Shown here piece by piece: positions 30,198 through 43,165 of a DNA stretch of 64,000 nt. A program made the translations under genes and the position numbers. Position 1 is the stretch's first letter; each line of letters opens with the position of its first letter. Origin of the DNA: a virus; the IMG/VR virus record IMGVR_UViG_3300030430_004105, positions 19,219 to 83,218 of that record. One strand, given 5' to 3'. The notes under the pieces were generated by a model, which was not told the origin of the DNA, did not search any database, and saw nothing but the letters and a program-made list of their open reading frames with translations.

Positions 30198-30215
30198 GTT
30201 TTTCTCCTTTTACTT

Positions 30216-30245
30216 ATTATACGATTCAGATATCGATTTTATTCA
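30216..30245 (-). promoter_or_regulatory. Class-I promoter TGAATAAA-N9-TGAATCG-TATAAT
   Basis: One of nine copies of a fixed-spacing bipartite motif. Confidence 0.8.
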
Positions 30246-30687
30246 AATATTTTGTTACATAATCCGTACAAATGTAATCGTACTTCTGTTCGTCAATATC
30301 CGGATATCTTTCTGGGAATAGAAACACAGTGTTTTTGCCACTAGTCTCTTTATTAGGGTATGCCCAGATATGCCCTTTAGATGTTATTGTATAATCATCT
30401 TCTTGGTGCCAAAAACAATGTATTTCAGAAGCCAACATTCGCTCTAGAGCATCTTTGTTTTTAGCATGGCACCAAAGCCCTTCTTGCTTAAGGAAAGTCT
30501 CTTGGATTTGATATTTGGGACTGTCATGTCCTAACAAATATTTTTCATCGATATACCAAACATCTATTTCAACATGAAAACCAGAATCCAGCAATGCTTG
30601 GATCGCTGCTGGGTGGTTTTCTACGGTTGTATCTTCTCCTTCGGTATATGCTCTGTGAGAAATAATTATCACTCTGTTAATCCCCAT
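30226..30687 (-). CDS. GDPD/PLC-like phosphodiesterase (minimal TIM barrel)
   Basis: IISHRA...EN...VEIDVW...LGHD...WCHAKN...ICTDY. Confidence 0.8.
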   Translation of the reverse strand: MGINRVIIISHRAYTEGEDTTVENHPAAIQALLDSGFHVEIDVWYIDEKYLLGHDSPKYQIQETFLKQEGLWCHAKNKDALERMLASEIHCFWHQEDDYTITSKGHIWAYPNKETSGKNTVFLFPERYPDIDEQKYDYICTDYVTKYLNKIDI

Positions 30688-31859
30688 TTTTCAATTGCGA
30701 TGTGATATTCTTCGCCATATTCCTTGTCAATTGATTGCCTCATAGCCATCGCTCCGCTCTTGGATCCATTAGGGTGTCCGTGAATCGCTCCTCCGACATT
30801 AGCCATATAGTCCAATCCAAAACGCTTGTTGATGGCTTTTACAAGCCCAGCATGCATACCACAACTGAGGGCTGGCATTACATTTCTATTATGAAGAACG
30901 TCCAAAGTATTCTTAAGTTCGTCTTCGTTGTCAGACATATACCCTCCCCACATTCCAGCGTGAATAAAATCAACTCCCATCAAGCCAGCAAGATCACAAA
31001 TAACATCCCAAGAGATGTGATAGTCATGAGATTTATTAGTCAAAACTTTGTCTCCGCTTTTCTGAAAGTGTATGAACATAGGAAGATCCAACTCTCTGAT
31101 CGATTTGTAAACTCCCAGTCCACTCCAAAAATTAATGTGTACTGCGTTTGCTCCAAGTTCATATACCCTCTTTACTCTATCGATAACATGATGAGGATCA
31201 CAATTTATACAAACTGCATAGACAACATTCTTATCCTTCAAATATTCCATAATCTTTGGAACCCTTTCTTCGATTGGGCAGCATGCAGGATTAGACATGA
31301 TCTCATCTTCTTTGATGAAATTGATTCCACCTTCTACCATTTCTTTAACCATCTCTAGCAAGACATCACTGTTGACACCAATCTTAGGCTTCACGATCCC
31401 TCCAAATAGTGGTTTATCGTGAGCACCAGTAAAGTCTCTAATACCATCAATTCCATATTTCGGCTTCATGAAATAATTATCTTCTATATGCTGTGGAAAG
31501 TCCACTTCCAAAAGATGACATTTGGTAACAATATCGATATCCATTTGTCCTCCCATAAACTGGCACAGCAAATGTGAAACGCCATCAGACTCAAAGTCAG
31601 TGTTGGCAATAGGAAAGGCAATTGTTACCTCTCCCTCTTGTTTTGTTTTAAGTACTTCTTCGTTACCAATCACAAAACAAGAGTGATTTTCAAACAACTC
31701 ATCTGTTTCCCAATGGTTTCGGACATTAGGGTTTCCAACACTCTGTCCTATGCTCAAACCCCATGCAGCATCTCTTAAAGTTTCATTAGAAGATAAAAAA
31801 TATCTACATAAAATGTATTTCTCTCTATCTATCTCGTCTATTGTTCTAAAAATTTTCAT
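30669..31859 (-). CDS. RuBisCO-like protein (form IV, RLP)
   Basis: PKYGIDGIR, GGIVKPKIG, GINFIKEDE, GVDFIHAG, PALSCGMH, NVGGAIHGHPNG; the loop-6 lysine is absent. Confidence 0.92.
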   Translation of the reverse strand: MKIFRTIDEIDREKYILCRYFLSSNETLRDAAWGLSIGQSVGNPNVRNHWETDELFENHSCFVIGNEEVLKTKQEGEVTIAFPIANTDFESDGVSHLLCQFMGGQMDIDIVTKCHLLEVDFPQHIEDNYFMKPKYGIDGIRDFTGAHDKPLFGGIVKPKIGVNSDVLLEMVKEMVEGGINFIKEDEIMSNPACCPIEERVPKIMEYLKDKNVVYAVCINCDPHHVIDRVKRVYELGANAVHINFWSGLGVYKSIRELDLPMFIHFQKSGDKVLTNKSHDYHISWDVICDLAGLMGVDFIHAGMWGGYMSDNEDELKNTLDVLHNRNVMPALSCGMHAGLVKAINKRFGLDYMANVGGAIHGHPNGSKSGAMAMRQSIDKEYGEEYHIAIEKWGLTE

Positions 31860-32578
31860 AATTCCTCCAATTTTGTTAAAAAATTATTTAGTTCTTCAGG
31901 AGTTCCCATTCCCCTCATTTCATACACTGGATAAGGTTTAACAACCCCTCCTCTTGAGTTTATTAATATATTATACACTGGGCATATATAAAACTCATTG
32001 TTAAATCTAACGTTTCTAGATATCATCTCTTCGGCACAAGAAACATACTCTGATCCTTTAGCCCAATAATACATTCCAACTGTTGCAAAGTTACTTATCA
32101 CTTGCTTTTCGGCAACTTGTGTAATGTTTCCTGTATTATAGTCTACTCTTGAATACGAGTGCTTTGGGCTATCAGATAAGAAAAACGGTATGCAACCATC
32201 CAAACCTTTACAATAGTTCTGGAAGTGTTTAGGATCCCAATCAACCCATTGATCCGCATTTGCAATAAATAATGGCTCGTCATTATCAATATACTCTTTG
32301 GCTAGCAATGTTGTACATGCAGCACCCTCAGTTAAGCCATCTATCTCAACTAAAACAGAATTTTTTACACAATTTCGCAAATACTCTTTCATCTTTGGGT
32401 ATTTTTCCATGTGTTGTTTTTGGACTATGAAAATGTGTTCATTTTCAGGTAATCCAATATTTTCAATGACTCTTTGAATCATTGGTTTTCCGGCTACATC
32501 TATTAAAGGTTTAGGATCTGAGTAACCTGCTTTAAAAAATCTAGATCCTGCTCCTGCTAATGGTATTAATACTTTCAT
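31856..32578 (-). CDS. Sugar/organic-phosphate nucleotidyltransferase (NTP_transferase)
   Basis: LIPLAGAGSRF...PKPLI...TEGAACT...IANADQ...VAEK...NEFYICPVYN...GMGTPEEL. Confidence 0.9.
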   Translation of the reverse strand: MKVLIPLAGAGSRFFKAGYSDPKPLIDVAGKPMIQRVIENIGLPENEHIFIVQKQHMEKYPKMKEYLRNCVKNSVLVEIDGLTEGAACTTLLAKEYIDNDEPLFIANADQWVDWDPKHFQNYCKGLDGCIPFFLSDSPKHSYSRVDYNTGNITQVAEKQVISNFATVGMYYWAKGSEYVSCAEEMISRNVRFNNEFYICPVYNILINSRGGVVKPYPVYEMRGMGTPEELNNFLTKLEEL

Positions 32579-32587
32579 TTTTTCTCC

Positions 32588-33331
32588 TTAAAGTTTGTAT
32601 GCCCATCTTACCAATGGCACCATTCCATCTTCTTTATTTTTGTAATAATTGTCATATTTTTTTTGTATCATAAAGTTACCCATGTCTTCGAATAACCCCA
32701 GTTCTCTTAAATGCCTAGCGGCAATCATATGGTTAGAATCTAGTCCGTATGTTTCTAAAATATCATAAATTCTAGTAAAATTATACATATTATCGGAATT
32801 TGCAACAAACAATAGATCCCCAACTTCATAGTAATGAGACTCTCTATCGCAGCAAGAACCACGACATATTTCTGGATTGTACATATGTATTGGATCTGAG
32901 CCATTGTGATAAAATCTTTTCATGTCTAATCTGGAATCTTCAAAGTCAATCTTTTCTTGCAATGCTAAATCAAATCTAGATAATAATACGATATCGTACT
33001 TTATATTATGTTTTTGTTCATACTTTCTCATAACATCTAAAGATCGTTTGATAGAATACCAATTGCTTTTTATGGCAAATTGTCTAGTACTAAGATTAGA
33101 GCCAAAATCAATTTGATCTTGAAAAATACATCCTTTTGGATTATACATAGAAACCAACTCATCTTTAAATTGTCTATCCCAGCAATGAAAAAACACATCA
33201 ACATCATTATGATCTAACAAGTTCTCTTTCCAATGTTTAAACCCAATCTTTGCCGCATTCATATTCTGCCGTCCTAAAACATACTTTTTATTATTTCCTA
33301 CTTTTCCTCTCATACATAATGCTATTTTCAT
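32588..33331 (-). CDS. Putative glycosyltransferase (KIALC..G / HCW / YD....RFD type)
   Basis: MKIALCMRG...DVFFHCW...YDIVLLSRFDL...DLLF; glycan-locus context. Confidence 0.6.
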   Translation of the reverse strand: MKIALCMRGKVGNNKKYVLGRQNMNAAKIGFKHWKENLLDHNDVDVFFHCWDRQFKDELVSMYNPKGCIFQDQIDFGSNLSTRQFAIKSNWYSIKRSLDVMRKYEQKHNIKYDIVLLSRFDLALQEKIDFEDSRLDMKRFYHNGSDPIHMYNPEICRGSCCDRESHYYEVGDLLFVANSDNMYNFTRIYDILETYGLDSNHMIAARHLRELGLFEDMGNFMIQKKYDNYYKNKEDGMVPLVRWAYKL

Positions 33332-33334
33332 CTC

Positions 33335-34219
33335 TTACTCCCTTATATATAACCTAGATGCATACTTCACTAATTCACTTAATTCATTCCATTTAGAATA
33401 TCGATACGATTTATAATTGAATATCGGAACTGGGTTGTAACTATATTGCAACTGCAGAATCAGTCTTGGTTTAGTCTTAGGCACAGTGCCTCTATGAATT
33501 CCATATGTGTCAGCAAACCAACTAGTTCCCGATTCTCCTGAAATAGTCTTTGCCAGATCACGACTGAAGTATTTGAAAACTTGCTCGTCTGAATATCTCA
33601 CAATCTCAAACATGTCTTTTGGGAGATCGTCTTCTGTATGGCTCCTCTTTACATACACCTGCTCTCCTTCGCCCAGTTCCACATCACTAAGTAACACAAA
33701 AAATTTCACAAACTTATAATCGTCAGCATCTCTATGGAACAACTGCATGTTAATTGGCTCGCTCACATCTTGAGGAAAACTCCACATTGGAAGAACCAAT
33801 GAAAGAGTTGCAGGGCATCCCAAATAACTAGATGCCATTTTTGTCAACCTTTCGTTAGTAATTAATTCGATCATATTAGGGCATAATAGATTATCTTTTA
33901 TCGTGTGTCTCCCAAGTTTAATGTTCTTAGGTATATTTGCCAAATCAAATTTTTGATGGCTACCATAGAAATCATAACAAGGTTTTGTTAAAAAATATTT
34001 GTACATATCCTGTGATTGATCTTGATCAAGAACGTTATCGATTATCATGACACCGTTTTTTCTCAACTCTTCACAGTCCATGTTAAAATCAAATTTGTAC
34101 TCAGTCACAAGTCTGTTACAAGTTTCCATAGATCTGGAATGTCTTGTTGCAAGATCCAGAGTTGCTCTCTGTTCTTCCCACTCAGGAGTAGGAAACTTGA
34201 GTATCCAATTTTCAAACAT
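33335..34219 (-). CDS. 2OG-Fe(II) dioxygenase, PhyH-like
   Basis: FHRDAD...FFVLLSDV...ADTYGIHRG...R (HxD...H triad). Confidence 0.85.
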   Translation of the reverse strand: MFENWILKFPTPEWEEQRATLDLATRHSRSMETCNRLVTEYKFDFNMDCEELRKNGVMIIDNVLDQDQSQDMYKYFLTKPCYDFYGSHQKFDLANIPKNIKLGRHTIKDNLLCPNMIELITNERLTKMASSYLGCPATLSLVLPMWSFPQDVSEPINMQLFHRDADDYKFVKFFVLLSDVELGEGEQVYVKRSHTEDDLPKDMFEIVRYSDEQVFKYFSRDLAKTISGESGTSWFADTYGIHRGTVPKTKPRLILQLQYSYNPVPIFNYKSYRYSKWNELSELVKYASRLYIRE

Positions 34220-34808
34220 GTTTTATTTCCTTTAAGCAATTTTCGTGAAAGAAGTACACAGTGTCTTGTTTGTGCTTCAAAGGTAGTGTTTCTTCTGGGT
34301 GTAAGTTCATGAGTTTACCTCTCATTACTTTTGAAACCATCTCATGACATATAAAAATAATTTTTTGTCCCTCATATTTATCTAAAACAGATGATATTCT
34401 CTCACTTAATAATTCGTAACTCTCTCCCATCGGCACAATGTAGTGCCAATAATTACCTTTTTTGTACCTTCTGTCCAAAAACCCCGGAAAGTCTCTTTCT
34501 ATCTCTTCTTCTGTCTTTCCTTCCCAAAGCCCAAAGCAGTGTTCCTTTAAGTTTTCTTCTGTTATACACTGCATAAAATCAACACCTAGAGATTCACATA
34601 TTATGCTAGCATATTGCTGACATCTCCATTGAGGTGATGTAATAAATTTATATTCTCCTATATCTTTTCCTTCAAACTCCCTTTTGATCAAATCTGCTGT
34701 TCTTTTTGCTTGATCAATTCCTTTAATAGTCAGAGGAGAGTCTTTTTGTCCCTGCTTTCTTTTAGCCAAATTCCACACAGTCTGTCCATGTCTAATAATA
34801 TAAATCAT
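34212..34808 (-). CDS. Histidine phosphatase (phosphoglycerate-mutase family)
   Basis: IIRHGQT, SP..RC, LKE..FG.WEG, GES, ICH. Confidence 0.92.
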   Translation of the reverse strand: MIYIIRHGQTVWNLAKRKQGQKDSPLTIKGIDQAKRTADLIKREFEGKDIGEYKFITSPQWRCQQYASIICESLGVDFMQCITEENLKEHCFGLWEGKTEEEIERDFPGFLDRRYKKGNYWHYIVPMGESYELLSERISSVLDKYEGQKIIFICHEMVSKVMRGKLMNLHPEETLPLKHKQDTVYFFHENCLKEIKHV

Positions 34809-35647
34809 ACGTACTTCATATCCTTGAGAAAATCCAATTCCTCTTTATGAAACTCAGTCAGTCCAGCATTATTCTCTAGAATCAATTTATCTATCGTTTC
34901 ATTCATTTCTCTGTACTTTTCTGGTGTCAGAGCGCAACCTAAATGGTGGATACCCCAATCTAAAGAGAGAGAAAAGTGTCTTTCAATCATTCTGGCGCCT
35001 TGGAGAGTTGCTAAAATAGATGGTGCATATCCAATTTCATGCCCAGAATACCCTATCTTTATATTATCACTTTCAAATTTGTTCCGAAGGTGTGTTATAT
35101 AAGTGATATTTGACTTGCCATCTGGTGTTGGGTAAATCGAAACTGTATGAAGCAAGAATGCTTTAAGTTTAAATCTATTAATTTTATTAACTAACTTTGA
35201 AACAAACTCATCAGACTTTCCACCCAAACTTATTATTAGTGGCTTATCCTCCTTAGCGCACAAAGTCATAACCTTATCAACTAATTCTGTTTTACCAGCA
35301 TCCATACTAGCAACTTTGTAGAAAGGAGGATCAAAAGTTTTAATGAATTCAAGCCCCTCTTCGTCATGTACAGTGCAGAACCATCTTATTCCTTTTGAAT
35401 TGCAGTAATTTGCTAAATATTCAAAATCTTCTTTACTTAACTCCAAAGATCCTCGATATGTCTTAAAATCAAAATTTCTCCATTTTTTACCATCGTCTTT
35501 GTAATATTTTTTAACATTCTTGAATTTAAGTTTAATTAGATTTGCCCCACCGGATACGGCTTCGTCAATCATTTTTTGAGCAATTTTAACCATACCTAGG
35601 TGGTTAATACTCAACTCTGCCACCATAATAGGTTTTTCAATTACCAT
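34805..35647 (-). CDS. neuB: NeuB/SpsE-family nonulosonate synthase, lacking the C-terminal SAF domain
   Basis: AELSINHLG, KVASMD, LLHTVSIYPT, GYSGHEIG, IERHFSL; 280 aa. Confidence 0.85.
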   Translation of the reverse strand: MVIEKPIMVAELSINHLGMVKIAQKMIDEAVSGGANLIKLKFKNVKKYYKDDGKKWRNFDFKTYRGSLELSKEDFEYLANYCNSKGIRWFCTVHDEEGLEFIKTFDPPFYKVASMDAGKTELVDKVMTLCAKEDKPLIISLGGKSDEFVSKLVNKINRFKLKAFLLHTVSIYPTPDGKSNITYITHLRNKFESDNIKIGYSGHEIGYAPSILATLQGARMIERHFSLSLDWGIHHLGCALTPEKYREMNETIDKLILENNAGLTEFHKEELDFLKDMKYV

Positions 35648-36291
35648 CTTCCCATTTCCTCCACTATTTGTTCAAATGTTTTTTCCGTTTCATTAATCAA
35701 GAAACGAACTCTTTTTTCTCTTTCTAATTGTTCCAGTGCAATCGATTTAAATCTATCTTTAAGATCAGATCTTACAATTATAACACCATCTCTACTAGCA
35801 AACGAGTAATCATTTGGGGTTATCTTCACCCCCTCTATTTCAATATCAATCTGATATCTCGTCAAAGCCCAATAGTCTAAAGCATCAATTGGATTTTCGT
35901 CTTTACAAAACACAGGAAAATCTAGTTGATCAATAATATCGATATCTCTAACTACTCCATCTGTCACAAAACCTTTTGCTCCGAGTTTCTTATATATTAA
36001 AGAAGTTATATCACCACTATGTGCTACTTTGTCGTCATTCGCTTGTAAATAGACAATTGGATTATTCGCAAACATACTTGGCTTATACATATCAAGCCTT
36101 ATATTGTCTAGTTTTGAATAATCTACTTTCCAATCTCGTACCACTTCTCCATAAGTAGTGAAACAATCTCCCTGAATAATCGAGGTATAGCCACACTTGG
36201 GCTTTATATTAATATAAAAATCTTTATATTGTTCACCCATCAGCCTTAACGAATCATATACTATACCCATATAAATATCATTTGGTAACAT
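35641..36291 (-). CDS. RraA / HMG-aldolase family protein
   Basis: AHSGDITS...GFVTDGVVRDI...FPVF...I.P.D...ASRDGVII. Confidence 0.85.
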   Translation of the reverse strand: MLPNDIYMGIVYDSLRLMGEQYKDFYINIKPKCGYTSIIQGDCFTTYGEVVRDWKVDYSKLDNIRLDMYKPSMFANNPIVYLQANDDKVAHSGDITSLIYKKLGAKGFVTDGVVRDIDIIDQLDFPVFCKDENPIDALDYWALTRYQIDIEIEGVKITPNDYSFASRDGVIIVRSDLKDRFKSIALEQLEREKRVRFLINETEKTFEQIVEEMGRW

Positions 36292-36946
36292 TCATCAACC
36301 TCTCAATTAATTCTAGATCTTCATTGACATTTATATCTAAAGATTCAATTTTTGAAACCCCTATCATCATTGGGCTCTCTCCAACTCTTGTCTTGTTTTT
36401 AAGTAGAGAATCTACAGTTATGCCGTAAAGTCCGTGTGTCTCCATTTTCAAGATATCTAATTCAAAACTGTTAGGCAGTTCTTTGGTTGAAAAATTATAA
36501 GATTTCCCATCTTTCCAGAAATACTCTTGAACATCTACAGTCGTGAAAAAAGAATCGTGATGAGGAAGTCCGTGGTTAACAAATCTTTCAATGCAAAAAT
36601 CTATAGTTTCAGATCTTAACAATGGTGAAGTGCAAAATGTCTGCAATAGTATGTCACATTCGTCAACGCTGTGAAGTCCGTATATCATCATTTCATTGGC
36701 ACCTATGTCATTTGTTGCGAGACTAGGGTGTCTTTTGATTAATTTCAATCCTCTAGAAAAAAGCGACTTTACACTAGCAATGATATCGTCACTTTCAGTA
36801 TCTAGATAAACGTTGTCTATGTTTTCACATTTGAGTGCTTTTTCACATGCAAGAAAAACCAATGTCTTTCCATTGATTTCGTACAAATTTTTATTTTTTA
36901 TCCTTTTGCTAGTTCCTTTAGCAGGGATAATTAAATTGATTTTCAT
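36278..36946 (-). CDS. CMP-nonulosonate / CMP-Kdo-type cytidylyltransferase (NeuA/KdsB family)
   Basis: IIPAKGTSKRIKNKN, TSPLL, LDINVNEDL. Confidence 0.88.
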   Translation of the reverse strand: MKINLIIPAKGTSKRIKNKNLYEINGKTLVFLACEKALKCENIDNVYLDTESDDIIASVKSLFSRGLKLIKRHPSLATNDIGANEMMIYGLHSVDECDILLQTFCTSPLLRSETIDFCIERFVNHGLPHHDSFFTTVDVQEYFWKDGKSYNFSTKELPNSFELDILKMETHGLYGITVDSLLKNKTRVGESPMMIGVSKIESLDINVNEDLELIERLMNVTK

Positions 36947-37758
36947 ATTTTAAATCTCCGTATTTTTTTAGATAAAAAGCATTTGTCTGATTCATATGCT
37001 TCTATTGAGTTTCCTAGTTTTTCAAAATACTCTGCAAACACTCTAGACAGATTAATCGAATCTAGCATTTCAGAGTTGTATGGCTTTCCACAAGGATTTA
37101 TAGTTTTATTTCTAGATTCTTCATGATAAAAATGCTCAACAAAGCCTTCAATGCTGGGATCTGCATAATCCCACCCTACTGTTTTTACCTTATCAAACCC
37201 TAAATGCAAAGCAAAAAATAACACATTTTCATACATTATACCTGCTCCCCACTCTCTCATTAGTCCTGTTTTTTCAAAAGTATAATTCTCTAAACCATCA
37301 AAATCTTCAAAATATTGTTTTCTAGATAAAGGCATTCTAGTAGGTGTGCCATTACCAGTTGTGTCTCTGTTTATTATTTGTCCAGTAACTCTAGAACAAA
37401 TATCAACTTGTTGATTTTTCCAATACGCTGCTCTAGCAATAACCTCACTATTCCAATCAGATGATCCAATATAAAAACTTTCTTCTTTGTCGGGATAGTA
37501 GACATAGTTATTTGTATTAAAAAAATGAAAATCAATATAGTCTTTAAAAGGAAAATAACTTTGCTTGATAGTCATCAAACAATTGTTTTTCAGTTCTAGT
37601 TTTAACTTTTCTTTATCAATGTCTTTTAGAGATGGGCCGCATCCTAAAATATAACACGTTTGTCCCTTGAATTTGTCTTTAAAGAAAGACAGCCTCTCTT
37701 CATAAGAAGAAAGACTTTTTGCTTCAGCGATTATACTTTTTATATCTTTTTTGTTCAC
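36943..37758 (-). CDS. Maf_flag10 / MptE-like (DUF115) putative nonulosonate transferase
   Basis: KDKFKGQTCYILGCGPSLK...FALHLGF.....GWDY...HFY. Confidence 0.75.
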   Translation of the reverse strand: MNKKDIKSIIAEAKSLSSYEERLSFFKDKFKGQTCYILGCGPSLKDIDKEKLKLELKNNCLMTIKQSYFPFKDYIDFHFFNTNNYVYYPDKEESFYIGSSDWNSEVIARAAYWKNQQVDICSRVTGQIINRDTTGNGTPTRMPLSRKQYFEDFDGLENYTFEKTGLMREWGAGIMYENVLFFALHLGFDKVKTVGWDYADPSIEGFVEHFYHEESRNKTINPCGKPYNSEMLDSINLSRVFAEYFEKLGNSIEAYESDKCFLSKKIRRFKI

Positions 37759-37774
37759 ATAAACCTCTTTATAT

Positions 37775-37804
37775 ATTATACGTTTAAGTTTGTCATTTTA
37801 TTCA
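37775..37804 (-). promoter_or_regulatory. Class-I promoter TGAATAAA-N9-TTAAACG-TATAAT
   Basis: Motif copy overlapping the 3' end of gmd, upstream of the 10-gene cassette. Confidence 0.8.
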
Positions 37805-38780
37805 AATTAATTTGCTCTCTTCTTAGATCTTTCTCGTACATCTCCATTGCAAGTTCTTCAAAATCATATTCAGGCACCCAGCCCAATGTCTTCATCATCT
37901 TGGATGGATCTCCCCATAACTTTGGCACTTCGCAAGGACGATAAAACTTAGGATCAATGACTACGTGATCTTTGATGTCCAGCCCAGCATAGTCAAAAAC
38001 ATACTCTAAAAATTCTTGAACTGAGTTAGTTTTACCAGTTGCTAGCACATAATCATCTGCTACATCGTGCTGAAGCATCATCCACATTCCTTTAACATAA
38101 TCAGCAGCATGTCCCCAGTCTCTTTGGGCAGACAAGTTTCCAAGCCTTAGTTCATCTTGTAAGCCCAACTTGATTCTTGCAGCGGCTTTGGTAATCTTTC
38201 TGGTTACAAAGTTTTCTCCTCGTCTTGGAGATTCATGATTGAAAAGAATACCAGAGCATGCGTAAATCCCATAAGACTTTCTATAAGTGCTTACCATATG
38301 GTGTGCTGCTAATTTAGCACATGCATAAGGCGAGACAGGAGAAAAGTGGGTATCAAGTCCTTGCGGACACTGAGTATTATCACCAAACATCTCGCTCGTA
38401 GATGCCTGATAGAACTTGCAGGATGGCTTCTGGAGCCTTATTGCCTCTAGGGCATACAAACACCCCATCATATTGATCTCAGTCGTACTAACAGGCGTTT
38501 TAAAGGACGTACCGACATGTGATTGAGCAGCCAAATTATAGTATTCATCTGGTTGGTATTCAGATATCAAGCGATAAAGTGAAGAAGAATCTGTTACATC
38601 TGCCTCTTCTAAGATAAAATTACCGTCATCAAGTAAATGAGTTATGTTCTGGCATTTGTTTTCAAAGTCTGAAACTGTTCTTCGATATGTGCCTATAACC
38701 TTGTAGCCCTTATCAATCAGAAGATCTGAAAGATAAGAGCCGTCTTGTCCAGTTACTCCAGTAATTATTGCAGTTTTCAT
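37776..38780 (-). CDS. gmd: GDP-mannose 4,6-dehydratase
   Basis: ITGVTGQDGSYL, YNLAAQSHV, FYQASTSEMFG, SPYACAK, FNHESPRRGENFVTRKIT, RDWGHA. Confidence 0.96.
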   Translation of the reverse strand: MKTAIITGVTGQDGSYLSDLLIDKGYKVIGTYRRTVSDFENKCQNITHLLDDGNFILEEADVTDSSSLYRLISEYQPDEYYNLAAQSHVGTSFKTPVSTTEINMMGCLYALEAIRLQKPSCKFYQASTSEMFGDNTQCPQGLDTHFSPVSPYACAKLAAHHMVSTYRKSYGIYACSGILFNHESPRRGENFVTRKITKAAARIKLGLQDELRLGNLSAQRDWGHAADYVKGMWMMLQHDVADDYVLATGKTNSVQEFLEYVFDYAGLDIKDHVVIDPKFYRPCEVPKLWGDPSKMMKTLGWVPEYDFEELAMEMYEKDLRREQINLNKMTNLNV

Positions 38781-40045
38781 AATAAAAACTCCTCTTCATC
38801 TGGGCTGTCAAATTGTATTCCTAGTTCTTCGTTAAAACGATTAAACCAATACTGCTCACCTTCATAAGAATCTCGAAGTTGCTCAGCCATTTCTGTCCAT
38901 TTGTCAATATTTTCATAAACATCTCTCATTTTACTTTTAGCATCAGCATCATCAATATAAGCCCAACTAGATTCAGCATGAAGAACTCCATCCCAAACTG
39001 CATTTTGAGGAACCTGTCTCAGTTCACACTTAACAGCAGCAAACTTTTTCTTGTATGTTGTGATTTTGCCCCTAGTTTTTCCACCTTTGAGTTTTCCGGG
39101 AGGGTTAATGTCCTCTTTGATGGCTAAAAAGTCTAAGTGTCCACTCCAATCTGTTGCTATAACAGGAAGCCCATTACAAGAAGCCTCATATAAAGGAAGT
39201 CCAAAACCTTCACCATGCGTAAAAGACACAACAGCCTTTACTTTAGGATGATTATATAAACCTTGCATTTGTTCGTCAGATAAATTTCCATGAAGTAGAT
39301 TTATAGAACATTTCCACCCTCCTTCTTTTGCTGTTTTCGAAACTTGCTCAAATTGTTTTTTAATGTTATGGTAGTCCATAACAGAATCGTTTGCCTGATG
39401 AACTTTGAAAAGCAAGCCAACTTCTTCATTCTTGAACTCTTCAAGAAAATTATGTAAAACAGCATCTACATTTTTTCGTGGGCCTAACTGAGCAACACAT
39501 AGAAAGTTGAAATCATGTCTAAGGTTTAGATCCAGTTCTTCTACTTCGATATCTCTCTTAGGAAAACCAACGAACGACATAGGTGTATCGCATTTGTATT
39601 CAGGTATCTTTTGTCCAGTCTTGGTATCAGTTGCTTCATAAGAAGTGTCTCTATAAACTTCCATGCTGTGTTTAGAAATTGTGATAATTTTATCAACCTC
39701 ATTTCCCTTTACCAACCATTCACCAGCAACTCTGTTAGTTTCAATACCTGCTGTATATCCAATATCATGAGGAGATAAACGCTTCCATTCGTTAGGTATT
39801 GTACACTGCACGGTTGCATCATATTGCCCATTGTTCTGCATATACAAAACTGTTTTTTGAAGCAACGCATCAATCAGTTTTCTTTCCTGATCGTCTCTCC
39901 AAATCCATCCTGATCTTCCCCAACTAATATTGTGTACATATAAATCAACTGCGGGGTTTGACATCAATGCCCTAAGAGCAAATCTGCCCATTTCACCATA
40001 TCCGGAACGTGAAAGTACCGGTGCCACTAATAATATTTTTTTCAT
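38777..40045 (-). CDS. GT4-family glycosyltransferase
   Basis: SGYG, RKN, HGEGFGLPLYEA...LPVIATDWSGHLDF. Confidence 0.88.
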   Translation of the reverse strand: MKKILLVAPVLSRSGYGEMGRFALRALMSNPAVDLYVHNISWGRSGWIWRDDQERKLIDALLQKTVLYMQNNGQYDATVQCTIPNEWKRLSPHDIGYTAGIETNRVAGEWLVKGNEVDKIITISKHSMEVYRDTSYEATDTKTGQKIPEYKCDTPMSFVGFPKRDIEVEELDLNLRHDFNFLCVAQLGPRKNVDAVLHNFLEEFKNEEVGLLFKVHQANDSVMDYHNIKKQFEQVSKTAKEGGWKCSINLLHGNLSDEQMQGLYNHPKVKAVVSFTHGEGFGLPLYEASCNGLPVIATDWSGHLDFLAIKEDINPPGKLKGGKTRGKITTYKKKFAAVKCELRQVPQNAVWDGVLHAESSWAYIDDADAKSKMRDVYENIDKWTEMAEQLRDSYEGEQYWFNRFNEELGIQFDSPDEEEFLL

Positions 40046-41331
40046 GCTACCTCCAATAGTCTATAGTTCAAATGCTTTCTGGTTTCCCAAGAACCTTCTT
40101 CTTCATATATTCGCTGCATCAAATCAACCCAAGTTTTTTCGAAAACTTCAAAACTGTAATTTTTTATCACATGTTCTCTACCTGCTCTTCCTAGGGCATC
40201 TCGATACTCTTGATCAGCCATGTACATATCTCTTAGGGCGGACGAAACCTTCTTACCATTTAGTCGATCTTCGTATATGTAAGGCACTTCTTGAGATCCA
40301 ATAATCGCCTTAGAATCAGGCTCCAGTCCAATCCCGAACCAAGTCTCTCCGTCTGTAACCTGTTCTTGTAGTCCGCCTGTCATATTCACAATTATTGGTG
40401 TCCCACAAGAAAGAGATTCAAGCGTTGCCAGTCCAAATCCTTCAGCATCTGATATGTTGATCGTACAGTCTGCTAGATTATAAAACATTGCTAGATTTTC
40501 CATTTGAACTTTGTTAGTAGAAAACAAAATCTGTCCATCAATTAATCCTAAGTTTTGAACAATAGCATTGAGATCTTGCCCATATCCATCTTTGGGATCT
40601 GTGTGCATGATTAATGATGCTTTATCATGTCCAACTTGATCTAGAAAGTCTTTAAACCAATAAATCAAAGAACCGCTCTGTTTTCTTCTAGCATTTCGAT
40701 TGTTCCAAAAAAACAAAAACTTTCCTTTTGAATCGTACTGTTCATCAAACTGTGCTCTAAACTCTTCTATCTGTTCTTTTGGCAAAGGCTTAAAAAAGTT
40801 AGAATCAACAGCATGCGGCACATACTGCTCTTTCACATCAGGTGCAACATTTTGCACAATATCACTTGTAACTTTTGATATAGTTGCAATAAAATCGTTA
40901 GATTCGTAAAACCTCTGGTTATATTTTGGTAGTGGGTAGTTGTCCCACACATGATAATATACCATGGGGATTAAAGAACGAATCTCTGCCTCTATTTCCC
41001 AAAGCCAGCCATAAAAACGAGGATCAGTCATAAAATACAAAATATCAGGACGTTCATTTCTGATAATAGATCTTACGATATCCTGTGTGCCATAGCCATC
41101 GACAGGGAAGATTTTCCATCTTTCACCCCATTGTTCCGTGATCTGTGGCTTATGATCCGGATGCTTGATTGCCCCACCAAGACTGACTACATCAAATTTA
41201 TCAGACTTAAGCAGGGCTTCTATAATATATTTAGTTTGAGTTCCGACACCCGATGGCGATAGTGGGTGATCAGATATAGTCAAAACTTTAATTCTTTTTT
41301 CCGACATTTCTTCTCCTTTTGTTACGGACAA
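40042..41331 (-). CDS. GT4-family glycosyltransferase
   Basis: VPHAVD, NRNARRK, AEGFGLATLESLSCGTPII. Confidence 0.9.
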   Translation of the reverse strand: MSVTKGEEMSEKRIKVLTISDHPLSPSGVGTQTKYIIEALLKSDKFDVVSLGGAIKHPDHKPQITEQWGERWKIFPVDGYGTQDIVRSIIRNERPDILYFMTDPRFYGWLWEIEAEIRSLIPMVYYHVWDNYPLPKYNQRFYESNDFIATISKVTSDIVQNVAPDVKEQYVPHAVDSNFFKPLPKEQIEEFRAQFDEQYDSKGKFLFFWNNRNARRKQSGSLIYWFKDFLDQVGHDKASLIMHTDPKDGYGQDLNAIVQNLGLIDGQILFSTNKVQMENLAMFYNLADCTINISDAEGFGLATLESLSCGTPIIVNMTGGLQEQVTDGETWFGIGLEPDSKAIIGSQEVPYIYEDRLNGKKVSSALRDMYMADQEYRDALGRAGREHVIKNYSFEVFEKTWVDLMQRIYEEEGSWETRKHLNYRLLEVA

Positions 41332-42101
41332 TGTTTGGTTCCCTTGAACTCACAATTAGCACAAGAAAGCCTATTCTTAATATAAACACCATTATCAATA
41401 TTGTAAAGCGCTCTTGACAATAATTGCATAGCATTTTCTGTTCTTCTCTTTCCAGAAGTTACTTTAAATAATTCTACTTCGTTAGTCTTGGCGGTTCGCT
41501 TTAGAAGCCCAAAGTGACATTCAATGTTTTTTGGATCAATGCCATGCTTCATTGCATAGTAATGCTTATAAAAAATTAATTGATAGACAACCATTTTGTC
41601 TGATCTTCTTTTAGCATCCCATCCCCATGAACAAGACTTCCAATCCAGAATATGATAAGTCTCGCCTTTTTTGACAACCAAGTCGATATATCCTTTAAAT
41701 TTGAAAGGATTCCCATCATAGTGGGAAATATCCTCAAAAATCTCTTCTTCGCACTTAATAATCTCATAATTCTCACCAAAGTAAGAATCTAACTTTACTT
41801 TATACTTGTCTACCAAGTTTTCTCCTTGAGATCTGAACTGATCAAAATGATTGTCTTTGATTTCTTCAATCAACAAGCCTCTTTCTTTTCCAAATGCTCT
41901 ACCGAAATAGTCTTTTAATTCTGTCTCATCGATCTCATTTTCTAAATGTTTCTCAATTGTCTCATGCAAAGCAGAGCCAAAAGCAGTGTAAATGTTTCCA
42001 GAAAATGATCCCTCAACCTTATCGATTGAAGCCAGTTTGTGATAGAATGGGCATTTAACCCAGTTTTTAAGTTGTGAAAAAGAAATATATTTGTTAGTCA
42101 T
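41322..42101 (-). CDS. PD-(D/E)XK nuclease (AddB/Cas4-like, Fe-S cysteines)
   Basis: SFSQL....CP, FGSALH, KGYIDL, ILDWKS, QL.FY, C-terminal CANCEF....C. Confidence 0.88.
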   Translation of the reverse strand: MTNKYISFSQLKNWVKCPFYHKLASIDKVEGSFSGNIYTAFGSALHETIEKHLENEIDETELKDYFGRAFGKERGLLIEEIKDNHFDQFRSQGENLVDKYKVKLDSYFGENYEIIKCEEEIFEDISHYDGNPFKFKGYIDLVVKKGETYHILDWKSCSWGWDAKRRSDKMVVYQLIFYKHYYAMKHGIDPKNIECHFGLLKRTAKTNEVELFKVTSGKRRTENAMQLLSRALYNIDNGVYIKNRLSCANCEFKGTKHCP

Positions 42102-42430
42102 TAGTCCCCCGATTTTTTTGTTCTTTTCTTTTTATACGTTTGAGGCTTTTGTTTATTCAATTTTTCTTCTTCTTTGGCAATTTTGTTAAAAATCCAAGTT
42201 CCCTCTAGGTTTGGGCTTAGTCCTTTAGTGTTGTAAGACGTAAGCACATTAGAAGATTGTGACTCTAATTCATAATCTGTCAATATTACTCCTTGTTTTG
42301 TAAGGTATTCCACTAATTCCGAATTAGAAAATTCAATGACAGGATCTCTAGCATATGCTCTTGCTGGTAGTTTAACATCAACGATTAGTTTGTTGTCTTC
42401 CTCTGTCTTGTTAATAATAATTTGTTTCAT
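42101..42430 (-). CDS. Hypothetical protein
   Basis: 109 aa, AGGAG RBS. Confidence 0.7.
   Translation of the reverse strand: MKQIIINKTEEDNKLIVDVKLPARAYARDPVIEFSNSELVEYLTKQGVILTDYELESQSSNVLTSYNTKGLSPNLEGTWIFNKIAKEEEKLNKQKPQTYKKKRTKKSGD
42131..42159 (-). promoter_or_regulatory. Class-I promoter (N8 spacer variant)
   Basis: TGAATAAA-CAAAAGCC-TCAAACG-TATAAA, intragenic, upstream of the nuclease gene. Confidence 0.7.
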
Positions 42431-42439
42431 ATTTTCTCC

Positions 42440-43165
42440 TTAAGTAATTTTGAAATCTGTATTCTTTTCTAGAAGTTCTATCCTAGAGTGCAATATTGGT
42501 GATATATTCTTAAGTTGCATGCCACCCTCTAAATAATAGTCTTCAAACCCAGTAGCGAAATATTCACGCACTGACGTGGCTGCATATGGGCGTATGAAGA
42601 GTGTCGGCGCCAAGTTTTTAATCTTTTCATACCCAACAACTTTATACAAAAACTTATCAAACTCTGGATCAAACTCGGTGTTTATAAAATCAAAATACGA
42701 CAAATCATATTCTTCTAAATTATATTCTTGAGTTACTAGATCGTGTAACCTATTCATCTTCCCAAGATATTCATTTATTATCTTACCGTCTTCATAGATT
42801 TTTTCTGAATTGTTCTCCTCAAACCTGTGAGCAAACTCATGCACTAAATCATCTAGTATTTCTTTTTCGCTTACCAATTCATCAGAAGATACGTATATGT
42901 TATCTTTATGATGTAGGGCAGTCAGTGATCTTTTCTTGAGGATATCAAAATCTCCAAAATAGACATTTTTAATCCCAGCATACGACGAAATGGGCAAGTT
43001 AGATCGTAACAAGCCCATAATCTTTTCAATGTCAATGTCATTCTTAAGAGGTTTGTCGAGAACAAACTCGATACCTCTGTTAAAATAGAATCTTTTCTTT
43101 TCCGAAAGTATTTTAGTCTGCGATTGTTGCAGTAACTTCGTTAAGTTGTTTCTGTTCTTTGACAA
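42440..43165 (-). CDS. HEXXH zincin-like protein
   Basis: LVHEFAH...YAATSVREYFA. Confidence 0.7.
   Translation of the reverse strand: MSKNRNNLTKLLQQSQTKILSEKKRFYFNRGIEFVLDKPLKNDIDIEKIMGLLRSNLPISSYAGIKNVYFGDFDILKKRSLTALHHKDNIYVSSDELVSEKEILDDLVHEFAHRFEENNSEKIYEDGKIINEYLGKMNRLHDLVTQEYNLEEYDLSYFDFINTEFDPEFDKFLYKVVGYEKIKNLAPTLFIRPYAATSVREYFATGFEDYYLEGGMQLKNISPILHSRIELLEKNTDFKIT

What the first reader, a model, noticed from the sequence alone, without database searches (positions are those of the whole stretch)
30669..31859. Viral RuBisCO-like protein in a biosynthetic (glycan) context with a remodelled active site
Seen (alignment by eye to spinach numbering): K175/K177 (VKPKIG), K201-x-D203-E204 (KEDE), H327, S379 and G403/G404 are kept. 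E60, T65, N123, H294 (IHFQKSG) and the loop-6 K334 (WGGYM) appear replaced. Known: characterised form IV RLPs are enolases/isomerases in methionine salvage or (de/trans)carboxylases in sugar-acid catabolism. Inference: it cannot fix CO2. Its translational coupling to a nucleotidyltransferase and a phosphodiesterase points to a new anabolic RLP reaction that makes a small phosphorylated acid or sugar for NDP-activation.
Basis: partly seen in the sequence, partly recalled or inferred. Interest (0 to 1): 0.82.

Follow-up and report, generated by a model that had tools for sequence, protein, structure and literature searches.

The report
Phage RuBisCO-like enzyme in sugar-activation module
A large marine phage carries an intact RuBisCO relative that cannot fix CO2 and is wired (overlapping or, in relatives, fused genes) to a sugar-activating enzyme and a miniature phosphodiesterase, so it most likely prepares an unusual sugar phosphate for a surface glycan, a role never tested for this enzyme family.

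Summary
Window 30669-31859 (-) encodes an intact 396-aa RuBisCO large-subunit homologue. It keeps the enolisation core (KPK, KEDE, H327, S379, G403/G404 equivalents) and has replaced E60, T65, N123, H294 and K334.

It belongs to a well-separated clade (SH-aLRT 99), apart from MtnW, OiaX-like and form III sequences. The clade is not virus-only. It also occurs in Pelagibacter, Legionella, Nonomuraea and DPANN/CPR genome records.

The gene is nearly always beside a PF00483 nucleotidyltransferase: 45 of 45 viral loci and 45 of 49 genome-record loci. Fusions occur in both orders. A 150-aa GDPD-like protein usually accompanies it. A 107-aa cupin is usually present too, though not in this window.

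Among 124 viral loci, RLP and a beta-phosphoglucomutase-like HAD domain rarely occur together. This suggests two alternative feeders of the same transferase.

Best reading (0.58): an enolising isomerase or epimerase of a 1-phospho-ketose that supplies the transferase in a glycan-decoration module. The substrate is unknown.

The phage clade was published in 2019 with no function assigned. This scan has already reached the same reading on other DNA. Eight literature searches found neither the module nor a biosynthetic role.

The parts
30669..31859 (-). RuBisCO-like protein (RLP), 396 aa, 'KEDE' clade. Mg/carbamate triad and KPK are kept; H294->Q266, K334->Y307, N123->Q105, E60->G38, T65->N43.
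   Evidence: ORF. PF00016 at 116.6 bits. All NCBIfam equivalogs fall far below their cut-offs. Residue mapping. Model pLDDT 95.2 with RuBisCO fold. Clade placement.
31856..32578 (-). Nucleotidyltransferase (NTPt), 240 aa, N-terminal GxGxR-type motif. Its stop overlaps the RLP start (ATGA).
   Evidence: PF00483 at 42 bits against a cut-off of 21.2. Best PDB match is 4evw, 'nucleoside-diphosphate-sugar pyrophosphorylase', E 8.7e-18. phrog_3980 at E 2.6e-61. Next to RLP in 45/45 viral and 45/49 genome-record loci. Fused to RLP in 8 NTPt-RLP clusters and 1 RLP-NTPt protein. Junction read.
30226..30687 (-). Miniature GDPD-like phosphodiesterase, 153 aa from the ATG at 30687 or 148 aa from the GTG at 30672. 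It overlaps the RLP stop.
   Evidence: No Pfam or NCBIfam hit. phrog_34507 at E 9e-22. Model pLDDT 93.6. Best PDB matches are glycerophosphodiester phosphodiesterases: 7e0v at E 1.2e-3, prob 1.00, TMq 0.59. Invariant in 30 homologues: H11 R12 N24 E40 D42 H54 H74 K76 D97 C140 D142. Present in 39/45 viral RLP loci and 23/49 genome-record loci. One GDPD-RLP fusion fragment, P0154.
31856..31868 (-). Coupling junction: GGAGGA (31868-31863) followed by ATGA (31859-31856), where the NTPt stop and the RLP start overlap.
   Evidence: Sequence read.
32588..33331 (-). 247-aa protein of unknown family, a frequent but not constant companion of the module and a candidate downstream transferase. That role is inference only.
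   Evidence: No Pfam or NCBIfam hit. phrog_13607 at E 1.5e-9. Its homologue cluster occurs in 23 of 95 loci, 13 viral and 10 from genome records.
33335..43165 (-). The window's wider glycan island, which is context and not part of the conserved module. Genes: unknown 294 aa; His_Phos_1 (34212-34808); NeuB (34805-35647); RraA-like (35641-36291); CTP_transf_3 (36278-36946); weak MptE-like (36943-37758); SDR that looks like GDP-mannose 4,6-dehydratase by eye (37776-38780, not scanned); glycosyltransferases.
   Evidence: Pfam and NCBIfam. PHROG glycosyltransferase for 40042-41331. These genes are rarely found near RLP elsewhere: NeuB 2/45, CMP-transferase 1/45, His_Phos 0/45, RraA 0/45.

Best explanation
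The gene encodes a catalytically active, non-carboxylating member of the RuBisCO superfamily. It works with the adjacent nucleotidyltransferase and the miniature GDPD-like enzyme as one module inside a surface-glycan gene island.

Proposed mechanism:
1. The enzyme binds a 2-keto sugar carrying a phosphate on C1. The P1 phosphate site G334/G356/G357 is kept.
2. It enolises the substrate on Mg2+ held by carbamylated K183, D185 and E186, with K157/K159 as acid/base.
3. It reprotonates the enediolate to give an isomer or epimer, that is, a 3-epimerase, a 1,3-isomerase or an enolase-type reaction.
4. The residues RuBisCO needs after enolisation (E60, H294, K334) are gone, so no CO2 addition or C-C cleavage follows.
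5. The nucleotidyltransferase then activates the product as an NDP/NMP ester for transfer to a glycan.
6. The mini-GDPD handles a phosphodiester step, either forming a phosphodiester-linked decoration or opening or forming a cyclic phosphate.

Shown: the fold, the conserved residues, a separate clade, conserved gene neighbourhood, fusions, and glycan-cluster context.

Inferred: catalytic competence, the order of steps, the type of substrate, and the role of the GDPD-like protein.
For: 1. Active-site conservation. In 32 clade members down to 31% identity the enolisation set is invariant, and so are the clade-specific replacements Q266 and Y307. Against L003-L005, dN is 0.08-0.19 while dS is saturated.

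2. A distinct clade. In a 122-row IQ-TREE tree, 40 rows (39 I had labelled plus P0165) form one side of a branch with SH-aLRT 99. They are separate from the clade holding a true MtnW (P0188: 652 bits against a cut-off of 409), from OiaX-like sequences (P0196) and from form III sequences (P0159 passes the RuBisCO subfamily cut-off).

3. Linkage. NTPt is found in 45/45 viral and 45/49 genome-record RLP loci. The mini-GDPD is found in 39/45 and 23/49. Fusions: 8 NTPt-RLP clusters among the 120 hits listed of 2674 (several with 4-11 member sequences), 1 RLP-NTPt protein (P0122) and 1 GDPD-RLP fragment (P0154). In the window the three genes overlap.

4. An alternative feeder. In 124 viral loci the counts are RLP+/HAD- 47, RLP+/HAD+ 6, RLP-/HAD+ 50 and RLP-/HAD- 21, giving an odds ratio of 0.054. 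The loci are not phylogenetically independent. The HAD domain is fused in front of the same NTPt and scores best as beta-phosphoglucomutase family, 80.7 bits, below the cut-off. RLP therefore occupies the slot of a sugar-phosphate mutase or phosphatase.

5. A small cupin travels with RLP: RLP+/cupin+ 46, RLP+/cupin- 7, RLP-/cupin+ 5, RLP-/cupin- 66. It is cupin-like by Atlas features, with scores of 0.96-0.97 to Cupin_2 clusters.

6. Context. Glycosyltransferases, methyltransferases, a DegT aminotransferase and SDRs surround the module. In 4 of 4 Legionellaceae loci a LicD phospho-alcohol transferase sits beside RLP+NTPt and the mini-GDPD is absent.

7. P2-site residues that MtnW has lost are partly kept here (K267, H300), which fits a polar or phosphorylated tail.
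Against: - There is no biochemical datum for any member of the clade. The substrate, the nucleotide and the product are all unknown.
- Catalytic competence is inferred from conservation only.
- The order of steps is not fixed by the data. RLP could act on the NDP-linked sugar instead.
- The window and its closest relatives L003-L005 lack the cupin that accompanies RLP in 42/45 viral loci, so the module here is a reduced form.
- Six RLP loci also carry the HAD domain, so RLP and HAD are not strict alternatives.
- The GDPD assignment rests on weak fold scores (E about 1e-3) and on a motif recalled from memory.
- The association counts come from related contigs, so the Fisher p-values overstate independence.
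- Many 'genome-record' loci are MAG or SAG contigs that could be mis-binned phage DNA. The complete Pelagibacter chromosome and the cultured Legionella, Nonomuraea and Azospirillum records are not.
- The tree used the short search without bootstraps and contains no form I or form II sequences.
Confidence: 0.58

Rival explanations
1. RLP acts after the transferase. It binds the NDP-linked keto-sugar, with the beta-phosphate in the P1 site, and isomerises or epimerises it, so it is a nucleotide-sugar-modifying enzyme.
For: Fusions occur in both orders, so they do not fix the sequence of steps. The loops that normally close over P1 are remodelled: loop 6 has K334->Y307, and the partner-subunit motif is GQSVGNP in place of the form III ESSxGTW aligned to it. 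Small cupins commonly act on NDP-keto sugars (recalled knowledge). An SDR resembling a 4,6-dehydratase is near RLP in 15/45 viral loci.
Against: In pyranose NDP-4-keto sugars the carbonyl lies far from the phosphate, unlike the C1-phosphate/C2-carbonyl geometry that the conserved P1 site and Mg site imply. RLP largely replaces a beta-PGM-like HAD domain, which would act before the transferase. The Legionella loci contain only RLP, NTPt and LicD.
Confidence: 0.15
2. RLP makes a small phosphorylated acid or a shortened sugar by C-C cleavage or decarboxylation, as OiaX or the RLP transcarboxylase/hydrolase do, and this product is then nucleotide-activated.
For: Characterised RLPs of sugar-acid catabolism do such chemistry (family names from NCBIfam; the chemistry itself is recalled). 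K177 is kept, as it is in RuBisCO. In Ca. Pelagibacter sp. Uisw_094 a D-2-hydroxyacid dehydrogenase lies two genes upstream.
Against: H294 and K334, which RuBisCO uses for hydration and cleavage, are replaced by Q and Y throughout the clade. The OiaX model scores 123 bits against a cut-off of 700. The clade is separate from OiaX-like sequences in the tree. No carboxylate-handling partner is conserved.
Confidence: 0.1
3. The module is a salvage or catabolic device, for example for 5-methylthio- or 5-deoxy-ribulose 1-phosphate or for a nucleotide-derived pentose bisphosphate, and is not a glycan-building one.
For: The nearest solved structure is the methionine-salvage enolase of Geobacillus (2oej, E 1.1e-36). 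The trio of RLP, HAD and cupin recalls MtnW, MtnX and MtnD of methionine salvage (recalled knowledge). Form III RuBisCOs fused to an isomerase serve nucleotide salvage; P0160 and P0212 are such fusions.
Against: MtnW models score 137-168 bits against cut-offs of 409-514. The tail-binding residues differ from MtnW. The constant partner is a nucleotidyltransferase, which no salvage route needs. The surrounding genes are glycosyltransferases, LicD, and O-chain or LPS genes.
Confidence: 0.07
4. The RLP is a non-catalytic scaffold or regulator, or a decaying passenger gene.
For: No activity is known for the clade. Five canonical RuBisCO residues are replaced.
Against: The metal and carbamate residues and the clade-specific Q266 and Y307 are invariant across 31-88% identity. 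The ORF is intact in 45 viral and 49 genome-record loci. dN is low while dS is saturated.
Confidence: 0.04

Closest known systems
'Form IV-like' RuBisCO-related proteins of phages and Beckwithbacteria (Jaffe, Castelle, Dupont & Banfield, Mol Biol Evol 2019; PMC6389311, passages read)
   Same: Divergent RLPs on Myoviridae-type contigs of about 200 kb from IMG/VR, grouping with Beckwithbacteria and lacking several canonical residues. My clade contains IMG/VR contigs of 170-216 kb and a Beckwithbacteria MAG locus at 56% identity.
   Different: That paper left the function open. Its main text holds no occurrence of 'nucleotidyl' or 'glycosyl'. The conserved NTPt/cupin/mini-GDPD module, the fusions, and the wide occurrence in SAR11, Legionella, actinomycete and DPANN records are not described there. 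I could not compare sequences directly because the supplements are closed.
MtnW/YkrW 2,3-diketo-5-methylthiopentyl-1-phosphate enolase (Geobacillus kaustophilus 2oej/2oem)
   Same: It is the best sequence and structure match: E 1.1e-36 and TM 0.86 at 27% identity. Both are enolisation-only RuBisCO homologues that have lost H294 and K334.
   Different: The window protein keeps K177 and has Q, not K, at position 123. It also keeps K267 and H300 in the second phosphate site, which MtnW has lost. NCBIfam scores of 168 and 137 bits fall below the cut-offs of 409 and 514. It forms a separate clade. No methionine-salvage genes are nearby.
Rhodospirillum rubrum RLP, 5-methylthio-D-ribulose-1-phosphate 1,3-isomerase (recalled from the literature; not retrieved here)
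   Same: It is a model for what this protein may work like: a 1-phospho-2-ketose rearranged through an enediolate without C-C chemistry.
   Different: Membership was not tested.
Form III RuBisCO fused to ribose-1,5-bisphosphate isomerase (AMP pathway) in CPR/DPANN
   Same: A RuBisCO homologue whose pathway partner is revealed by adjacency and fusion. P0160 and P0212 in my hit list are such fusions.
   Different: Those keep all the carboxylase residues and serve nucleotide salvage. Here the partner is a nucleotidyltransferase and the carboxylase residues are lost.
HAD(beta-phosphoglucomutase-like)-nucleotidyltransferase fusions of T4-like cyanophages (e.g. Synechococcus phage S-CAM9 gp067; phrog_3980)
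   Same: The same NTPt subfamily, at 49-51% identity, also in phage glycan islands. In uncultured viral contigs the HAD-NTPt fusion often lies with the same mini-GDPD.
   Different: A HAD mutase/phosphatase domain feeds the transferase there. In this window RLP takes that place.
BcbE of the Pasteurella multocida type B capsule locus (InterPro IPR016873 as cited in PMC11641403; genetics in PMC13552107, passages read)
   Same: A protein of about 241 aa with a nucleotide-diphospho-sugar-transferase fold, annotated by NCBI as 'glycosyltransferase family 2', as are this NTPt's homologues. bcbE mutants lose the fructose (ketose) side branch of the capsule. That would fit a ketose-activating role beside a ketose-phosphate-handling RLP.
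   Different: Homology between the window's NTPt and BcbE was not tested. I had no BcbE sequence and no InterPro tool.

Membership tests
RuBisCO large-subunit superfamily (PF00016) | Significant match to the catalytic-domain profile, and the N-terminal alpha/beta domain plus TIM-barrel fold | tested here: met
   116.6 bits against a cut-off of 30.1. Model TM 0.84-0.89 to RLP and RuBisCO structures.
Bona fide RuBisCO (forms I-III) | Complete catalytic set E60, N123, K175, K177, K201, D203, E204, H294, K334 (list and numbering recalled) | tested here: not met
   E60->G38, N123->Q105, H294->Q266 and K334->Y307. The form III equivalog scores 165.6 bits against a cut-off of 497.
MtnW/YkrW DK-MTP-1-P enolase | Score above the NCBIfam equivalog cut-off, and placement in the MtnW clade | tested here: not met
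   NF007095 scores 167.6 against 409, and TIGR03332 scores 137.1 against 513.6. The protein is separated by a branch with SH-aLRT 99 from the clade that holds P0188, which does pass both cut-offs.
OiaX 3-oxo-isoapionate-4-phosphate decarboxylase | Score above the NCBIfam equivalog cut-off, and clade placement | tested here: not met
   123.3 bits against a cut-off of 700. The protein lies outside the OiaX-like clade of P0196 and P0256.
'Form IV-like' phage/Beckwithbacteria RLP clade (Jaffe et al. 2019) | Phage-borne on large myovirus contigs; groups with Beckwithbacteria RLPs outside the other RLPs | tested here: inconclusive
   The clade holds IMG/VR contigs of 170-216 kb and a Beckwithbacteria MAG sequence. 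The paper's own sequences are in supplements I could not open, so identity of the two clades is likely but not shown.
Sugar-phosphate nucleotidyltransferase (PF00483), for the neighbouring gene | Profile match with the N-terminal glycine-rich GxGxR loop | tested here: met
   42 bits against a cut-off of 21.2. G9, G11 and R13 are invariant in 22 homologues. No NCBIfam equivalog is reached; the best is 46.6 bits against 292, so the substrate is undefined.
Glycerophosphodiester phosphodiesterase (GDPD), for the 153-aa neighbour | Pfam PF03009 match; TIM-barrel with the HR...EN...ExD...HD catalytic and metal residues (motif recalled) | tested here: inconclusive
   There is no Pfam or NCBIfam hit. 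The best fold matches are GDPDs but they are weak: E 1.2e-3, TMq 0.59, TMt 0.38. H11 R12, N24, E40, D42 and H54 are invariant. The protein is about 60% of the length of a GDPD barrel.
BcbE family (IPR016873) | Match to the InterPro/PIRSF signature | not testable with these tools
   No InterPro library and no BcbE sequence were available. There is only circumstantial likeness in length and annotation.

The most novel reading that the evidence does not exclude
The RLP, with the small cupin where one is present, is an alternative route to a nucleotide-activated rare ketose or ketose-phosphate. RLP would act as a 1-phospho-ketose 3-epimerase or 1,3-isomerase. The BcbE-like transferase would activate the product. 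The mini-GDPD (LicD in Legionella) would then install it as a phosphodiester-linked or ketosyl side group on O-chain or capsule glycans.

This would be the first anabolic, glycan-building function in the RuBisCO superfamily. Phages would share it with SAR11-type hosts and use it to repaint the cell surface during infection.
Probability: 0.3. Interest if true: 0.82.

Novelty: new variant of a known kind. Interest (0 to 1): 0.62.

Why it matters
Every characterised RuBisCO-like protein works in salvage or catabolism. A clade that is tied by synteny and by fusion to a nucleotidyltransferase inside O-antigen, capsule and phage glycan islands would give the superfamily a biosynthetic role.

It would also define a new small-molecule building block of microbial surfaces. 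These include the surfaces of SAR11, the most abundant marine bacteria, and of the large phages that carry the same module.

The work gives a concrete, clonable three- or four-gene unit, and cultured carriers (Legionella, Nonomuraea, Azospirillum) in which the prediction can be tested.

It also shows how the enolisation core of RuBisCO is reused when the carboxylation residues are stripped away.

Tried and rejected
- **Complex prediction.** The RLP + NTPt job returned 'no answer' (score 0.00 against a mark of 0.32). It counts neither for nor against binding.

- **RLP in sequenced phages.** tblastn against 50,697 GenBank phage records gave no match, and PHROGs holds no family for it. So I found no sequenced phage record carrying it.

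- **Phage identity.** blastn of the neighbouring structural genes against phages gave no match.

- **Methionine-salvage reading (RLP + HAD + cupin as MtnW/MtnX/MtnD).** I considered it and rank it low, because the model scores, the residues and the constant NTPt partner do not fit.

- **CO2 fixation or a CBB auxiliary gene.** Rejected on the residues.

- **The whole ten-gene island as one pathway.** Rejected, because only NTPt and the mini-GDPD co-occur with RLP elsewhere.

- **Legionella neighbours.** Two unknown proteins gave nothing useful. The 575-aa one is an LbtU-type porin and is probably unrelated.

- **dN/dS.** It could not be quantified because dS is saturated.

- **BcbE homology.** It could not be tested.

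- **Literature.** Searches for an RLP linked to a nucleotidyltransferase, LicD, nucleotide sugars, polysaccharide clusters or phage AMGs found nothing relevant. Only Jaffe 2019 and the 2007 GOS paper, which reported unclassified RuBisCO groups, bear on it. That Tabita's 'IV-GOS' clade may be this clade is recalled and was not checked.

- **Tree rows.** From P0158-P0270 (113 proteins) I kept the 80 of 340-500 aa, added 3 trimmed fusions and dropped 30. The Azospirillum locus L085 was not included. Forms I and II were not among the 150 representatives returned.
Full report
**What is there.** The window is part of an 83-kb IMG/VR virus record that CheckV rates about 45% complete. It carries a T4-type baseplate wedge gene (phrog_219). 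The best full-length relatives of that gene are in a 190-kb Microcystis phage (34% identity) and in Flavobacterium myophages. On the minus strand, 30669..31859 is an intact 396-aa ORF. It matches the RuBisCO large-chain catalytic domain at 116.6 bits against a cut-off of 30.1. It reaches none of NCBI's equivalog cut-offs: MtnW-type 167.6 against 409, form III 165.6 against 497, and OiaX 123.3 against 700. Against the PDB, 99 distinct sequences match. The best are the Geobacillus DK-MTP-1-P enolase (2oej, E 1.1e-36) and a Pyrococcus form III enzyme (2cwx, E 5.2e-34). Form I enzymes score only 1e-14 to 1e-19. An AlphaFold2 model has mean pLDDT 95.2 and superposes on RLP and form III structures with TM 0.84-0.89.

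**The residue claims.** I used the printed HMMER alignment to 2cwx and a MAFFT alignment with form III-like representatives. The spinach numbering is recalled.
- Kept: K175/K177 (K157/K159), K201/D203/E204 (K183/D185/E186, 'KEDE'), H327 (H300), S379 (S332), G381 (G334), G403/G404 (G356/G357).
- Replaced: E60->G38, T65->N43, N123->Q105, T173->G154, H294->Q266, R295->K267, H298->D270, K334->Y307.

Across 32 clade members of 31-88% identity, both the kept residues and the replacements Q266 and Y307 are invariant. Against the three closest viral loci, dN is 0.08-0.19 while dS is saturated. This is a selected, clade-wide active-site design and not decay.

**A separate clade that is not only viral.** The 5.8-billion-protein search gave 2674 hits at E<=1e-10, and the 120 listed are all 65-96% identical. 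The exhaustive search of 50%-identity representatives shows a score gap. Clade members score 482 down to about 190 bits, and ordinary RLP or form III sequences score 160 bits or less. I built a 122-row tree with IQ-TREE using the short search and LG+C20 PMSF. It contained the window protein, 25 clade representatives, 13 sequences from genome records, 80 other representatives of 340-500 aa and 3 trimmed fusions. Thirty representatives outside that length range were dropped. The clade (40 rows) is one side of a branch with SH-aLRT 99. NCBIfam scans of 20 representatives label the other side:
- P0188 is a true MtnW (652 bits against 409).
- Its 25-row neighbourhood is MtnW-like.
- A 13-row clade is OiaX-like.
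- A 16-row clade is form III. P0159 passes the RuBisCO subfamily cut-off.

Forms I and II were too distant to be among the 150 representatives returned.

A scan of one genome per prokaryote species found 49 loci. They include:
- a complete Candidatus Pelagibacter sp. Uisw_094 chromosome (61% identity) and SAR11 single-cell genomes;
- Legionella maceachernii, L. nautarum and L. drozanskii (36%);
- Nonomuraea rosea, Azospirillum oleiclasticum and a Turneriella chromosome;
- Woesearchaeota and Nanoarchaeota MAGs, and a Beckwithbacteria MAG.

Some MAG and SAG contigs may be phage DNA. The complete chromosome and the cultured isolates are not.

**The conserved module.** I ran tblastn with the window's genes against the loci.
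- The PF00483 nucleotidyltransferase (NTPt) lies near RLP in 45 of 45 viral loci and 45 of 49 genome-record loci. Three of the four misses are contigs of 1.6-3.7 kb.
- The 153-aa downstream gene is present in 39 of 45 and 23 of 49.
- The other genes of the window's island are not conserved with RLP: NeuB 2/45, CMP-transferase 1/45, Maf-like 2/45, His-phosphatase 0/45, RraA-like 0/45.

In the window the three genes overlap. The first junction is GGAGGA-N3-ATGA, and the second is a GTGA or 19-nt overlap.

Fusions exist in several arrangements:
- eight NTPt-RLP clusters of 634-651 aa, several with 4-11 member sequences;
- one RLP-NTPt protein of 667 aa (P0122);
- one fragment with the small protein fused in front of RLP (P0154).

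The small protein has no Pfam or NCBIfam match. It folds confidently (pLDDT 93.6). Its best PDB matches are glycerophosphodiester phosphodiesterases, although weakly (7e0v at E 1.2e-3, prob 1.00, TMq 0.59). Its 30 homologues keep H11-R12, N24, E40, D42 and H54 invariant. From memory, that is the GDPD catalytic and metal pattern, here on a barrel about 60% of normal length.

**Two further components seen in relatives.** A 107-aa cupin lies between NTPt and RLP, or is fused to NTPt. Its Pfam Cupin_2 match is weak (E 0.0024), its Atlas scores to Cupin_2 clusters are 0.96-0.97, and it matches phrog_24762. It is present in 42 of 45 viral RLP loci and 15 of 49 genome-record loci. It is absent from the window and from its three closest relatives L003-L005.

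Searching viral contigs with the mini-GDPD gave 79 more loci. NTPt is there in 60, but RLP in only 8. In those loci NTPt is usually the C-terminal half of a protein of about 456 aa whose N-terminal half is a HAD_2 domain. That domain scores best as beta-phosphoglucomutase family, 80.7 bits, below the cut-off. The same fusion occurs in cultured cyanomyophages such as S-CAM9, within a glycosyltransferase island.

Over all 124 viral loci:
- RLP+/HAD- 47, RLP+/HAD+ 6, RLP-/HAD+ 50, RLP-/HAD- 21, odds ratio 0.054.
- RLP+/cupin+ 46, RLP+/cupin- 7, RLP-/cupin+ 5, RLP-/cupin- 66.

The loci are related to one another, so these are descriptive counts and not independent trials. They say that NTPt plus mini-GDPD is the common core. 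They also say that a mutase-like HAD domain, or RLP (usually with a cupin), are alternative front ends.

**Context.** Around the module lie GT2 glycosyltransferases, TylF/FkbM-type and class I methyltransferases, a DegT aminotransferase, SDR epimerase/dehydratases and Wzz-like proteins. In Ca. Pelagibacter it sits beside a GT9 heptosyltransferase, a CMP-sugar synthetase-like gene and a D-2-hydroxyacid dehydrogenase. In the four Legionellaceae loci the mini-GDPD is missing and a LicD phospho-alcohol transferase (151 bits in L090) lies next to RLP+NTPt. On an Azospirillum lipoferum plasmid the same NTPt subfamily is flanked by a HAD phosphatase, a WavE LPS protein and a SIS sugar isomerase. All of this is surface-glycan biosynthesis.

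**How it most likely works.** The enzyme keeps what RuBisCO-family enzymes use to bind a C1 phosphate and to enolise a C2 carbonyl on Mg2+. It has lost what RuBisCO uses afterwards. It partly keeps the second phosphate site (K267, H300) that MtnW has lost. I therefore read it as an enolising isomerase or epimerase of a 1-phospho-2-ketose with a polar or phosphorylated tail. Its product is handed to the nucleotidyltransferase. The mini-GDPD, or LicD in Legionella, would deal with a phosphodiester step. The order of steps, the substrate and the nucleotide are all inferred. I give the general reading 0.58. The rivals are action on the NDP-linked sugar (0.15), a C-C-cleaving route to a small acid (0.10), salvage (0.07) and a non-catalytic protein (0.04).

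One lead remains untested. NCBI names this NTPt subfamily 'glycosyltransferase family 2', as it does BcbE-like proteins. In Pasteurella multocida, bcbE mutants lose the fructose side branch of the capsule (PMC13552107, passages read). A ketose-activating transferase beside a ketose-phosphate-handling RLP would be coherent, but I could not align BcbE.

**What is known and what is new.** Jaffe et al. 2019 reported about 80 divergent form IV-related sequences on phage contigs, plus one curated phage genome of about 200 kb. These grouped with Beckwithbacteria, and the authors left their function unclear. The 2007 GOS paper had already seen unclassified RuBisCO groups. My eight other literature searches found no description of the NTPt/cupin/GDPD module and no biosynthetic role for an RLP. 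About 1.7 million PMC articles and all supplements were not searchable. Earlier agents of this scan reached the same 'sugar-activation cassette' reading on other genomes. I re-derived it independently here and added three things: the cupin and HAD counts, the Legionella LicD pattern, and the BcbE/fructose lead.

**Verdict.** This is a new functional variant of a known kind, the RuBisCO-like proteins, and it is still untested biochemically.

Noticed in passing
window 30209-30248 and 37768-37807: A 40-nt direct repeat (78% identical, spacing 7559 nt) brackets the ten-gene block from the mini-GDPD gene to the Maf-like gene. Two other first-reader notes of this scan read these as promoter copies that make the block a swappable cassette. 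I confirmed only that the repeat exists.
   Followed up: partly
window 3-15014 (-) and 18704-25153 (-): Two giant ORFs lie next to baseplate genes. One is longer than 5004 aa and runs off the window end. The other is 2149 aa. They are probably fibre or host-recognition proteins and were not analysed.
   Followed up: no
window 34212-37758 (-): A second activated-sugar branch sits in the same island: His_Phos_1 phosphatase/mutase, NeuB-family synthase (147.9 bits), RraA-like aldolase/decarboxylase, CTP_transf_3 cytidylyltransferase and a weak MptE/Maf-like protein. This looks like a nonulosonic or ulosonic acid pathway with an unusual RraA-like member. It is not conserved with RLP elsewhere.
   Followed up: partly
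L010:7666-7989, L024:7682-8002, L087:7121-7447 and others: A 107-aa cupin (phrog_24762, function unknown) accompanies RLP in 42/45 viral loci and is fused to NTPt in L014-L022. It is missing from this window's lineage.
   Followed up: yes
L127:2940-4310, L122:3214-4692; NC_031922.1 149847-151232: HAD(beta-PGM-like)-NTPt fusion proteins of about 456 aa occur with the mini-GDPD in many RLP-less viral contigs, and without an obvious GDPD in cultured cyanophage S-CAM9.
   Followed up: partly
L090:4937-5776 (-), L093, L094, L088: In Legionellaceae the RLP+NTPt pair sits next to a LicD-family gene and lacks both the mini-GDPD and the cupin. This is the smallest version of the module, and it occurs in cultured bacteria.
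   Followed up: partly
P0160, P0212 (protein hits): Form III RuBisCO fused behind an IF-2B/ribose-1,5-bisphosphate-isomerase-like domain (726 and 742 aa). This is the known CPR/DPANN AMP-pathway fusion.
   Followed up: no
window 41322-42101 (-): A 259-aa protein matching PHROG exonuclease families (phrog_69, E 1e-23) sits between the glycosyltransferases and the PhoH gene, at the edge of the glycan island.
   Followed up: no
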